A stretch of DNA of 64,000 nucleotides from assembly GCF_044647545.1 (NCBI RefSeq), contig NZ_CP172818.1, one strand, 5' to 3'. This stretch comes from Escherichia coli (GTDB lineage Bacteria > Pseudomonadota > Gammaproteobacteria > Enterobacterales > Enterobacteriaceae). Each line of letters begins with the position of its first letter. Position 1 is the stretch's first letter. Shown here piece after piece: positions 59,401 to 62,400 of the stretch. Made by a program: the position numbers.

Positions 59401-62400
59401 TGTAGGCCAGCATTGCGGCGTTAATACCGTTTTCCCACAATGACGGATCAACATAGTTTTGGTAATTCTTCATTATCCAGGCTTGAGGAACGTTGATATC
59501 CAGCCGTTGATCGTTGACGTCATAATGAACTGAAGCCTGGGGAATGATATTCGCCAAATCTAGACAATCTCCGAGTTCGCCTTCGCGCTGTAGAAGGATG
59601 GAATTCTCGGCATTTATATCTGGTTTATTAATGTGAAACTGCAATAAATTCTTCAGGGTGATACAAGCCTGCGCATTCTTCTTACCTTCGAGGGTAATAA
59701 AGGAAATGCTTTGGTTGATAACCGGTTGATCATTGATATAAACACTGACGTCATACACGCCGGGCAAGGTAGGGTTACCTTCGGTATACCGACTAAGGTC
59801 GATGTTAGAAGCATCTTGCCCCATCAAAAAGGTATTATCATATTCAACGTGTTCAGCGCTTATGGCACAGGGGCTTAATAGCAATGCGCAAAACGAGGCT
59901 ATATATGTAAGTTTGTTATTATGCGTTTTTATGATTTTTCTGGACACGTTGTGCTTCCTGCTGCGTTTATTCCTGATTTAGTTACAGGCTGGCATTGCCT
60001 TCAATTGCACCACCAAAGTCATTTATGGCGAAGAAATGCACTTTGGCAGAACTTGCTTTACCACTCATGCCTTTTATGTAGAAGGTTTCTTCACTCAGCG
60101 GGGCTACCATTTTTACATCCAGGGGGTAGGTTTTGCCATTGGCGACTAAATCACCACTACTGAATGAGACGTGATACGGTGTCGGATTTGCGACGCGCAA
60201 TGCAGTTTTTCCAGCAGAGGTTGCCCATGACCATTTCAGTGCTGCGGGTGCATCTGATGGCAGTCCGTTTAAACCTTCCGGGCGATAAAATAATTTGATA
60301 CGCGTACGGAATGCCAATTGCAGAAGACTCTGGTTGGCGACTTTATCTGCGTCAGGTTTGGGTGGAACCTCGAGTACGTTAAACCAGAAAACACTTTCTC
60401 GGTCTTTTGGCAGCGGTGAGGAAGCCGTGTACATCAATTTAATAGTTTGACCACGTTTGGCATCAATTCGCGAAACAGGAGGGGTGGCGGTAAATGGGAC
60501 AGTAATACTCCCTGGTTCAGCACTATCGTCGCCAGTATCCAGCCAGCTCTGAACGAGTAACGGATTATTCCCCTTATTTTCCAGCCGAACATTAACGCTT
60601 TTTTCATTACTTTTATAAATTACGCGAGTTCCTGAAATTACGATATCTGCTATTGCCGATGCGCTTAAGCTCATACAAGTGGCGAAGCATACAGCTGCAG
60701 TATGTTTAGCGTTTAAAAACATAAACCATTCCCGACAGAGTTAATTAAAATAGGGAGTAACATTCCACTATTAAGAAAGTTACTCCCATAGATATTCAGT
60801 TTATGAATCTAACGAAGGATTACTGGTAAGTAATGGTATATGCAGTGTTGGTTTTAACATAACCAGCAGTTGGTGCCTGGCTTGCTTCAGCACGGACATA
60901 GGATGCTTTAAAATCATAGGTTGCAGATTTAGTCGTAGCGTCCAGCGTTTTTGTGTAAATATCGCCTGGGTTGTTAATTTGAACCTGTTTGATAGTGGAA
61001 CCATCAATATTGTGCAGGGCAATATTTACGCCGTCAGAAGGCGTGTTAATAGACATATCGTTGTTCAGAGTCCCTTTGCTGTTGCCAAAGAACACGGAAC
61101 CGAAGGTCATTTTTGCGGTGCTACCAGGATTCGGGTTTGCATTGCTGCAGTCAACGGTGATGCTGAAAGGTTTAGCTTTAGCACCTACGGTGTCATTCAG
61201 TACGCCAGCACTGATTTCAGCAACAGTTGCAGTTTGCAGAAGCACCAGGCCATCTTTGTTGCCACCATCAACACGGGTTTCACAGGTGTTATCAACTACC
61301 AGACCACTGATATTTAACTGACCACCGTCCAGACCAGCAGAAGCAGTACCTGCAACCATTGCCAGCATAAGACCAGACAGGGCAAAACCTAATTTTTTAG
61401 ACATAAAAATCCTTGAATAAAATTCCATTAGTCAGACTACATGTTTGAAGAGTAACTATTCATGACACAAATAAGAGAAACAAATGTTAGATATTAATGA
61501 GCAATGATGTTTGTTACCAAAATTTACAACCATTGTTCATTAGGTTGCCTATTGTGCACTTTAGAAGCTTTTGAACAAATTAAATTTACTTAATTCAAGA
61601 TTAAGTAAATTTAAGTTCACAAGTGCAATTAGTTAGGGTATGGCGATGGGATTGATATTTCTCAGCGGGAATTTATATTATGTTTCTATAAAAAATTTTT
61701 AAACTAAAATCGTTATTAAGGAAAGAGAGTCGGTGTGATTTTCAGAAAATATTTATATTCGTAATATAAATAAATTACCATTTGCTTAATTTTTCAAATG
61801 CTCTTGTATGTAAGATTTGACGCAACGTCTCCCCATCAGGAAACACTAACTCCGGCGCAATTTCAAACAGTGGCCACAGCATAAAGCCACGATTTTTCAT
61901 ATCGTAGTGCGGAACGGTCAGACGTTCGGTATTTATTACTTCATTACCAAACAGCATGATGTCGAGATCCAGCGTGCGTGGTCCCCAGCGTTCCGCTTTA
62001 CGGACGCGACCTTGCTGCAATTCGATACGCTGTGTGTGATTGAGTAGCTCTTCAGGGGCAAGAGTGGTTTCCAGCGCGACGGCGGCATTTAAGTAATCGG
62101 GTTGATCTTGCGGCCCCAGCGGTGGGGTGCGGTAAAACGAAGAAACAGCAAGAATGCGGCTTTCTGGAATATCGCCTAATGCTTTCAGGGCAGCATTGAC
62201 CTGCTCCAGCGGAGAGGCCAGATTGCTGCCTATGGCAATATACGCCACTGTCATGCGGTACCCTCACGACGCGGTGCGCGTTTGCGTGGACGACGAGTAC
62301 GACGACGCGGTGACGGTTCTTCATCCAGTTCGTTAAGCATCCCTTTTTGGTCTGGCGGCGCGGAAACCTGGAACTCACCCCACCATTTCACCAGACGTTG

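What the first reader, a model, noticed from the sequence alone, without database searches (positions are those of the whole stretch)
61580..61614. Perfect 14-bp inverted repeat in the AT-rich region upstream of the Yad fimbrial operon
TTAAATTTACTTAA-ttcaaga-TTAAGTAAATTTAA is an exact inverted repeat of 14 bp separated by 7 bp, inside a 370-bp very AT-rich intergenic region upstream of yadN (the first gene of the minus-strand yadN-yadV-htrE-yadMLKC operon). A perfect palindrome of this length is unlikely by chance even in AT-rich DNA and looks like a dimeric regulator site. It could also be a recombinase site, although I see no second copy that would delimit an invertible segment. Chaperone-usher operons are commonly silenced or switched through such upstream elements.
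Basis: seen in the sequence. Interest (0 to 1): 0.4.

Follow-up and report, generated by a model that had tools for sequence, protein, structure and literature searches.

The report
Strain-specific perfect palindrome upstream of yadN
The perfect palindrome is real and far longer than chance allows, but it is the locally perfected version, found in about 2-3% of E. coli genomes, of an older imperfect palindrome upstream of the Yad fimbrial promoter; its function is untested, and it is neither an inversion switch nor a terminator.

Summary
The repeat is confirmed and slightly longer than reported: 15-bp perfect arms (61580-61594 / 61600-61614) around a 5-nt spacer, plus outer arms TGAAC/GTTCA. 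It is the longest perfect inverted repeat in the 64-kb window. None of 20,000 shuffles of the 370-bp folK-yadN spacer reached 15 bp.

The window is not K-12. Among 5,426 complete E. coli genomes:
- About 110-170 carry this perfect form.
- K-12-type alleles have two outer mismatches.
- BL21/B1-type alleles keep a 7-bp core.
- The FG92/ETEC4071/strain 4/0 family keeps a 5-6 bp core.
- The CFT073/Nissle family has a different perfect palindrome (13-16 bp arms) at the same position.
- O157-type loci carry another fimbrial operon and lack the element.

Across alleles the element aligns without gaps. Two mismatched pairs were each repaired in opposite directions in different lineages.

Best reading: an old quasi-palindrome in the H-NS-silenced yad control region, just upstream of the promoter. 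Its arms are repeatedly homogenised, most plausibly by replication template switching. It may be a symmetric protein-binding site, but no known motif fits convincingly.

I found no second copy, no recombinase gene, no terminator features and no Rfam match. Interest is modest.

The parts
61580..61594 (.). Left (yadN-proximal) arm, TTAAATTTACTTAAT
   Evidence: Read directly. Perfect complement of 61600-61614.
61595..61599 (.). Spacer/loop TCAAG. It varies freely among alleles: TCAAT in CE10/PEC403, CAA in K-12, and 9-nt loops in the CFT073/Nissle family.
61600..61614 (.). Right (folK-proximal) arm, ATTAAGTAAATTTAA. K-12 has AA instead of TT at 61606-61607.
61572..61576 (.). Outer left arm TGAAC. 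It pairs with 61615-61619 across the bulge AAA (61577-61579).
   Evidence: Folds of either strand as RNA or DNA.
61615..61619 (.). Outer right arm GTTCA
   Evidence: G61615 is A in the TOK-001, BL21 and OkiPb01704 alleles.
61486..61555 (-). Conserved block downstream of the palindrome in the yadN direction. This is the probable yadN core promoter and regulator region (inferred).
   Evidence: Between-family identity is 0.55-0.70. The CFT073 reporter fragment, whose upstream edge lies about 15 nt beyond the palindrome, carries the H-NS-repressed promoter. No TSS has been mapped.
60820..61404 (-). yadN, the major fimbrial subunit and first gene of the yad operon
   Evidence: ORF. RefSeq annotation of the identical strain FDAARGOS_497.
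61775..62254 (-). folK, the last gene of the upstream co-directional pcnB-folK unit

Best explanation
The 35-bp perfect palindrome is the lineage-specific, perfected state of an older quasi-palindrome. The consensus is TTTAC-N15-GTAAA with inner core CTTAA-N7-TTAAG. It sits at the upstream edge of the H-NS-silenced yadN promoter region.

Shown:
- The element is homologous and gap-free in all yad-type alleles.
- Its symmetry has been restored or extended independently in several lineages and lost in others.

Inferred:
- The arm homogenisation comes mainly from intramolecular template switching during replication (quasipalindrome correction). This copies one arm onto the other and produces apparently compensatory changes without needing selection.
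- The element is tolerated, and partly conserved, because it serves as a symmetric docking site about 45-110 bp upstream of the promoter. The partner would be a dimeric or bridging DNA-binding protein: H-NS itself, or an anti-silencer of the SlyA/LeuO/Lrp kind.
- Natural arm variants would then tune yad silencing.

The perfect form is not required for yad regulation in general.
For: - Non-random: 0 of 20,000 shuffles reach 15 bp, and it is the longest inverted repeat in the window.
- Allele survey: perfect 15+5 only in window-type alleles, i.e. 159+7 genomes at >=95% over the spacer and 107 exact over 66 nt. K-12 has 11-bp inner arms and 2 outer mismatches. BL21/B1-type, about 1,650 genomes, has a 7-bp core. 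The CFT073/Nissle family, 561 genomes, has different perfect arms of 13-16 bp at the same place. The FG92/ETEC4071/strain 4/0 family, about 1,100-1,230 genomes, has a 5-6 bp core.
- Ungapped 63-nt alignment of 9 alleles: 81.5% of cells are paired, against 22-56% when the partner is slid. Four pairs changed on both sides, and 0/500 shuffles reach the observed covariation score.
- Opposite repairs. The A.A mismatch at pair 17/43 (K-12, FG92, strain 4/0) is A:T in the window, where the right arm changed, and T:A in the Nissle family, where the left arm changed. The T.C mismatch at pair 12/48 (Nissle) is G:C in KEN07 and T:A in 2009C-3133.
- The K-12 to window difference is an adjacent AA->TT. No one-step intermediate exists in 5,426 genomes.
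- The element is a discrete conservation block (0.55-0.72) between poorly alignable flanks (0.2-0.4).
- Literature: template switching homogenises inverted-repeat arms and mimics compensatory substitution (PMC8794818, PMC7202029, PMC8604942, PMC13100816). yad is repressed >100-fold by H-NS, with an unidentified counter-silencing cue (PMC13245861). The K-12 spacer is an H-NS-bound 'promoter island' (PMC3661553). The CFT073 Pyad reporter fragment contains the whole palindrome at its upstream edge.
Against: - No protein binding is shown, and no known motif fits well. SlyA TTA-N6-TAA is absent by inspection. ArcA matches 11/15, Lrp 11-12/15 and the H-NS motif 7/10, none better than expected in A/T-only DNA.
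- Most genomes carry degraded versions. In BL21/B1-type alleles both partner bases of an otherwise invariant pair changed to a non-complementary T.C. That argues against strong constraint and is not what template switching predicts.
- The block is almost pure A/T, which inflates identity.
- The covariation test rests on only 9 related alleles.
- Template switching was not observed here; it is inferred from the pattern.
- Selection for a hairpin or cruciform would give the same pattern.
Confidence: 0.45

Rival explanations
1. No specific function. The element is a neutral A/T-rich quasi-palindrome inside generic H-NS-bound DNA. It is created, perfected and eroded purely by mutation: template switching versus point mutation. 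H-NS coats the whole spacer regardless of the repeat.
For: - The perfect form is rare, and decay occurred independently in several large lineages.
- The hairpin is not better than shuffles in the BL21-type and FG92-type alleles (z about -0.7).
- No known TF motif fits.
- Template switching alone explains the opposite-direction repairs (PMC8794818).
- The K-12 region is a 'promoter island' of promoter-like A/T-rich sequence.
Against: - The block is discretely conserved and free of indels across allele families that are otherwise full of indels.
- The single C:G pair and the CTTAA/TTAAG core are kept in all 15 yad-type alleles inspected.
Confidence: 0.3
2. It is a structural element. It would act either as a cruciform extruded under negative supercoiling, sensing supercoiling or temperature next to the promoter, or as an RNA hairpin in read-through transcripts from folK (stabiliser, processing site or weak terminator).
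For: - The hairpin is stable on either strand: RNA -15.4/-16.2 kcal/mol (z -5.3/-6.2) and DNA -13.5 kcal/mol (z -6.3).
- Stems covary while loops vary freely.
- On the - strand the window hairpin is followed by TTTGTT.
- yadN rises when Rho is inhibited (PMC10980228).
Against: - There is no terminator-like site.
- The T-rich tail is absent in the Nissle allele.
- The structure is not significant in alleles that make up more than half of yad-type genomes.
- The RNAalifold consensus is weak: -3.4 kcal/mol, covariation term 0.
- No Rfam family matches.
- The yadN promoter lies downstream of the palindrome, so it is not in the yadN leader.
Confidence: 0.15
3. It is a site-specific recombinase target, or the end of an invertible or mobile segment.
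For: Perfect dyad symmetry only. Some fimbrial operons, such as fim, use invertible promoters.
Against: - There is no second copy within 64 kb at <=2 mismatches.
- The element occupies one place per genome in 5,426 genomes; the 'two places' reported are the two strands of the same site.
- No recombinase ORF is adjacent.
- All allele families are in the same orientation.
- Yad is reported not to be phase-variable.
Confidence: 0.02

Closest known systems
Quasipalindrome template-switch hotspots in E. coli (e.g. the thyA and lacZ QP reporters; PMC7202029) and evolutionary inverted-repeat arm homogenisation (PMC8794818, PMC8604942, PMC13100816)
   Same: - Short-spacer imperfect inverted repeat.
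- Changes that increase arm complementarity, templated by the opposite arm.
- An adjacent two-base change (AA->TT).
- The same mismatch fixed in either direction in different lineages.
   Different: - No mutation assay has been done here; the mechanism is inferred from comparative data only.
- At least one double change (BL21-type T.C) does not fit templating.
Upstream operators and anti-silencing sites in H-NS-repressed fimbrial or horizontally acquired promoters (SlyA/RovA, LeuO, Lrp, H-NS nucleation sites)
   Same: - A/T-rich dyad upstream of an H-NS-silenced chaperone-usher promoter.
- yadN responds to SlyA overproduction (2.4-fold, PMC5797941) and to H-NS loss (>100-fold, PMC13245861).
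   Different: - The SlyA consensus TTA-N6-TAA is absent.
- 15-bp arms, with half-site cores 20 bp apart, are longer than typical dimer sites.
- No binding data exist.
fimS-type invertible promoter switches
   Same: Inverted repeat upstream of a fimbrial operon.
   Different: fimS has two separated 9-bp repeats flanking a 314-bp promoter segment, plus the fimB/fimE recombinases. Here there is a single hairpin-type palindrome with a 5-nt spacer and no recombinase.
Rho-independent terminators
   Same: Stem-loop downstream of a co-directional gene (folK). In this allele a T-rich stretch follows it on the - strand.
   Different: - One G:C pair in the 15-bp perfect arms, three more in the outer TGAAC/GTTCA arms.
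- The tail is part of the outer stem.
- It lies 160 nt past the stop codon.
- It is not conserved as a terminator in other alleles.

Membership tests
Invertible (fimS-like) phase switch | Two inverted repeats bracketing a promoter-bearing segment of about 0.1-1 kb | tested here: not met
   The arm sequence occurs only at 61580-61593 and 61601-61614 at <=2 mismatches in 64 kb. There is one place per genome.
Invertible (fimS-like) phase switch | Adjacent site-specific recombinase gene | tested here: not met
   The neighbours are folK, pcnB and yad structural genes only. No ORF >29 aa lies in the spacer.
Invertible (fimS-like) phase switch | Both orientations observed in populations | tested here: not met
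   Every allele aligned is collinear. The literature says Yad is not phase-variable. Read-level data were not available.
Rho-independent terminator | G+C-rich stem followed directly by a U tract | tested here: not met
   The scan found 0 sites. The perfect stem has one G:C pair. The TTTGTT tail pairs in the outer stem and is absent in the Nissle allele.
Known structured RNA (Rfam 15) | Covariance-model match at or near the gathering score | tested here: not met
   The best hits are E>2 and far below gathering scores.
Dimeric transcription-factor operator | Dyad symmetry with fixed half-site spacing | tested here: met
   TTTAC-N15-GTAAA and CTTAA-N7-TTAAG align without gaps in 9 alleles.
Dimeric transcription-factor operator | Half-site bases conserved across orthologous promoters | tested here: inconclusive
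   The inner core is kept in all yad-type alleles. However, TTTAC/GTAAA is broken in BL21/B1-type, FG92-type and strain 4/0-type alleles, and the outer arms vary.
Dimeric transcription-factor operator | Match to a known regulator motif, or demonstrated binding | not testable with these tools
   By inspection only: SlyA TTA-N6-TAA is absent, ArcA matches 11/15, Lrp 11-12/15 and the H-NS motif 7/10. No EMSA, ChIP or SELEX data for this site were found.
Quasipalindrome / template-switch locus | Imperfect inverted repeat with a short spacer | tested here: met
   K-12, BL21 and Nissle alleles.
Quasipalindrome / template-switch locus | Substitutions that raise arm complementarity, templated by the other arm | tested here: met
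   Pairs 17/43 and 12/48 were each repaired in both directions, and 4 pairs changed on both sides. This is comparative inference, not an observed mutation event.
Quasipalindrome / template-switch locus | Clustered multi-base change in one event | tested here: inconclusive
   AA in K-12 versus TT in the window at adjacent bases, with no intermediate in 5,426 genomes. Outgroup states allow two single changes instead.
Repetitive extragenic element (REP/BIME/MITE) | Many dispersed copies per genome | tested here: not met
   It is single-locus in every genome. The plasmid hits are chromosome-like records or chance A/T-rich matches.

The most novel reading that the evidence does not exclude
The palindrome is a functional, evolvable control knob for Yad fimbriae. 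It would act as a symmetric site, or a cruciform extruded under supercoiling or temperature change, at the upstream edge of the promoter. That site would nucleate or relieve H-NS silencing, possibly mediating the unexplained serum or host cue. Template-switch mutations would toggle it between strong (perfect) and weak (imperfect) states, giving heritable strain-to-strain differences in fimbrial expression.
Probability: 0.1. Interest if true: 0.55.

Novelty: new member of a known kind. Interest (0 to 1): 0.27.

Why it matters
Yad fimbriae contribute to biofilm formation, urinary-tract colonisation and bloodstream colonisation. Beyond H-NS and ArcA, their control is unknown, and the factor that counteracts H-NS in serum has not been identified. 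A defined, naturally polymorphic dyad at the upstream edge of the active promoter fragment gives a concrete target for footprinting and for allele-swap reporters.

Separately, the allele series is a clean natural example of quasi-palindrome evolution in bacteria. It includes imperfect forms, two different perfect forms, and decayed forms. It could be used to separate mutational arm homogenisation from selection on symmetry. If the element has no effect, it is simply one more A/T-rich repeat in H-NS-bound DNA.

Tried and rejected
- Rfam scan of 61200-62000 at E<=10: only noise.
- Promoter/terminator scan: no - strand promoter and no terminator. There are two overlapping + strand promoter-like sites at 61652-61681 that are not conserved in the Nissle allele.
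- Second copies: the arm sequence in the window; the core motif ACTWAA-N7-TTWAGT, which gave one hit inside the yadC CDS and one non-conserved hit in the same spacer; TTTAC-N15-GTAAA; plasmid collection. Nothing indicates a shared regulon site.
- Outgroup species: the single genome-contig scan with the usher returned only 3 loci, all E. coli-like. Chaperone homologues at >=75% identity are all E. coli; E. albertii, E. marmotae, Salmonella and others are about 55-58%, i.e. other operons. No outgroup is therefore available.
- Small ORFs in the spacer: none longer than 29 aa.
- RNAalifold on the 9 alleles: weak consensus.
- yadN leader hairpin: rejected, because the active CFT073 promoter fragment starts only about 15 nt upstream of the palindrome.
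- folK terminator role: rejected as the general function, because the tail and hairpin are not conserved.
- Literature: no paper mentions the palindrome. Larsonneur et al. 2016 (ArcA and temperature control of yad) is not held. The Reg-Seq supplement has no yadN data.

Full report
**Observation.** The + strand at 61580-61614 reads TTAAATTTACTTAA ttcaaga TTAAGTAAATTTAA.
- T61594 and A61600 also pair, so the element has 15-bp perfect arms and a 5-nt spacer, TCAAG.
- A further TGAAC (61572-61576) / GTTCA (61615-61619) pairing extends it across a 3-nt bulge.
- It is the longest perfect inverted repeat with spacer <=12 in the whole 64-kb window; the runner-up is 12 bp.
- In 20,000 dinucleotide-preserving shuffles of the 370-bp, 27% GC spacer, none reached 15 bp and five reached 14 bp.

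**Context.** The element lies in the spacer 61405-61774.
- folK (61775-62254) and yadN (60820-61404) flank it, both on the - strand.
- Its centre is 193 bp upstream of the yadN ATG and 178 bp downstream of the folK stop.
- The spacer holds no ORF longer than 29 aa, no Rfam match and no terminator-like site.
- The window is not K-12. The spacer is 100% identical to strain FDAARGOS_497 and 98.9% identical to CE10, but only 90.8% identical to K-12.

**Distribution in 5,426 complete E. coli genomes.**
- Window-type spacers (>=95% identity) occur in 166 genomes. The exact 66-nt element occurs in 107. CE10 and PEC403 differ only in the loop, G->T.
- K-12-type alleles, roughly 1,150-1,260 genomes, read TTAAATTTACTTAATTCAAAATTAAGTAAAAATAA. 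They have 11-bp perfect inner arms with a 3-nt loop and two outer mismatches.
- BL21/B1-type alleles, about 1,650 genomes, have TTTTC...GCAAA and only a 7-bp perfect core.
- The CFT073/Nissle family, 561 genomes, is a much more diverged spacer. It carries a different perfect palindrome at the aligned position: TTAATTTTACTAA-N9-TTAGTAAAATTAA (13 bp). This is extended to 16 bp in KEN07/SCU-484 and, by a different base, in 2009C-3133.
- The FG92/ETEC4071/L008/strain 4/0 family, about 1,100-1,230 genomes, keeps only CTTAA-N7-TTAAG.
- O157-type (424) and WS0115A-type (about 160) loci carry a different chaperone-usher operon. Their chaperone is about 58% identical, and they have no counterpart of the element.
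- Long perfect palindromes are thus present in about 13% of genomes, in two sequence versions. This exact one is in 2-3%.

**Evolutionary pattern.** All yad-type alleles align over 63 nt without a single gap, although the rest of the spacer is full of indels.
- With pairs defined as i and 60-i, 81.5% of cells are complementary, against 22-56% when the partner is slid by 1-3 columns.
- Four pairs changed on both sides, and no shuffle of 500 reached the observed covariation score.
- Two mismatches were repaired in opposite directions in different lineages.
  - Pair 17/43 is A.A in K-12, FG92 and strain 4/0. It is A:T in the window, where the right arm changed, and T:A in the Nissle family, where the left arm changed.
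  - Pair 12/48 is T.C in Nissle, G:C in KEN07 and T:A in 2009C-3133.
- The window differs from K-12 by an adjacent AA->TT. No one-step intermediate exists in the collection.
- Loops vary freely.
- Decay is also common: K-12 position 44, BL21 A21->T and T39->C, and the left arm of FG92.
- By my rough count (an inference), symmetry-restoring substitutions are several-fold more frequent than random substitution would give.
- The BL21 double change, to a non-complementary T.C, does not fit any symmetry-preserving process.

**Conservation.** In a comparison among three diverged allele families the palindrome is a discrete block of 0.55-0.72 identity.
- Its flanks score 0.2-0.4.
- Other conserved blocks are 61486-61555 (0.55-0.70), the RBS-proximal 61405-61425 (about 0.8) and 61734-61760 next to folK (0.8-0.87).
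- Because the block is nearly pure A/T, chance identity there is about 0.44 (my calculation). The constraint is therefore moderate, not strong.

**Relation to the promoter.**
- No TSS is published in the material I could read.
- The CFT073 Pyad-lux reporter of PMC13245861 was built with forward primer CTTAATTTTTTAAAGTTAATTTTAC and a reverse primer about 25 nt upstream of the ATG. CFT073 has the Nissle-type spacer.
- The roughly 204-bp fragment therefore starts about 15 nt upstream of the palindrome and contains all of it.
- That fragment is repressed >100-fold by H-NS and responds to serum.
- Hence the promoter lies downstream of the palindrome, most likely in the conserved 61486-61555 block (inference).
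- The palindrome is an upstream element, not part of the yadN leader.

**Known regulation.**
- H-NS silencing is documented (PMC13245861).
- ArcA and low-temperature effects are cited from Larsonneur 2016, which is not held.
- SlyA overproduction raises yadN 2.4-fold (PMC5797941).
- yadN is induced by bicyclomycin (PMC10980228).
- LmiA does not bind the O157 yadN promoter.
- Natural cis variants upstream of yadN are associated with expression differences (bioRxiv 10.1101/2025.06.10.658842).
- The K-12 spacer is listed as an H-NS-bound 'promoter island' (PMC3661553).
- No paper mentions the palindrome.

**Structure.**
- Window: either strand folds into the hairpin. RNA gives -15.4/-16.2 kcal/mol (z -5.3/-6.2) and DNA gives -13.5 kcal/mol (z -6.3).
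- K-12 gives z -3.3, and the Nissle segment (palindrome plus an adjacent hairpin) z -4.8.
- BL21-type and FG92-type give z about -0.7.
- The RNAalifold consensus is weak.
- On the - strand the window hairpin is followed by TTTGTT, but this tail pairs in the outer stem and is missing in the Nissle allele.
- A general terminator or RNA role is therefore unlikely.

**Interpretation.** I consider the most likely account (0.45) to be a composite.
- An old quasi-palindrome sits at the upstream edge of the yad promoter region.
- Its arms are repeatedly homogenised by replication template switching. This mechanism is documented in E. coli and is known to mimic compensatory substitution.
- It is partly retained because it serves as a symmetric docking site for a dimeric or bridging DNA-binding protein acting on H-NS silencing.
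- The perfect 15-bp form in this window is a derived, lineage-specific state.

The rivals are:
- a purely neutral repeat with no function (0.30);
- a cruciform or RNA hairpin role (0.15);
- a recombinase site (0.02), which fails every test applied.

Motif comparisons with SlyA, ArcA, Lrp, IHF, CpxR, OmpR and the H-NS nucleation motif were done by inspection from memory of the consensus sequences. They are leads, not tests, and none is convincing.

**Verdict.** The element is an uncharacterised cis-element of a familiar kind, with a neat natural allele series but no evidence yet of function. Interest is 0.27.

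Noticed in passing
window ~61815-61833 (inside the folK 3' end) through the yad operon; loci L004, L005, L010, L011, L015, L022: The yad locus between panB and folK is a recombination mosaic. There are at least six spacer allele families. Similarity to the window breaks inside the last ~20 codons of folK in about 2,400 genomes. O157-type and WS0115A-type strains carry a different chaperone-usher operon at the same site.
   Followed up: partly
window 61750-61772: A 10-bp A/T-only inverted repeat (TATTTATATT cgt AATATAAATA) lies immediately after the folK stop and is followed on the - strand by TTTTCTG. 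This is the best-conserved part of the spacer (0.8-0.87), yet its RNA fold is no better than shuffles (z -0.86). It may be the weak 3' end of pcnB-folK.
   Followed up: partly
L025 (BL21/Rosetta), also L008 and L022: In the commonest allele class both partner bases of one palindrome pair changed to a non-complementary pair (TTTAC->TTTTC and GTAAA->GCAAA). GTAAA->GCAAA recurs in the unrelated L008 and strain 4/0 alleles. This is unexplained.
   Followed up: no
L003 (strain PSJ-12) 1411-2474: The yad operon is replaced by an IS1 element and a truncated fimbrial pseudogene next to folK.
   Followed up: no
window 61652-61681, + strand: Two overlapping sigma-70-like sites (TTGATA-16-TATATT and TTGATA-18-TATTAT, 10/12 matches) point towards folK, antisense to it. 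This is consistent with the 'promoter island' description of the K-12 spacer. An 11-nt deletion in the Nissle allele alters the spacing.
   Followed up: partly
window 61485-61517: TGTTA/TGTTT/TGTTA repeats lie in the conserved block downstream of the palindrome and resemble ArcA half-sites. ArcA control of yad is reported in the literature, but the site is not mapped in anything I could read.
   Followed up: no
window 54684-54702 and 61703-61721: There are two further matches to the core motif ACTWAA-N7-TTWAGT. One is exact and lies inside the yadC coding region. The other has one mismatch, lies in the same spacer and is not conserved in the Nissle allele. Both are probably chance matches in A/T-rich DNA.
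   Followed up: partly
L004 2117-2149 (Nissle/CFT073, KEN07 spacers): The B2-type spacers contain a second 9-bp inverted repeat, GCATTGCAT-N15-ATGCAATGC, about 54 bp upstream of yadN. It is absent from the window allele.
   Followed up: no
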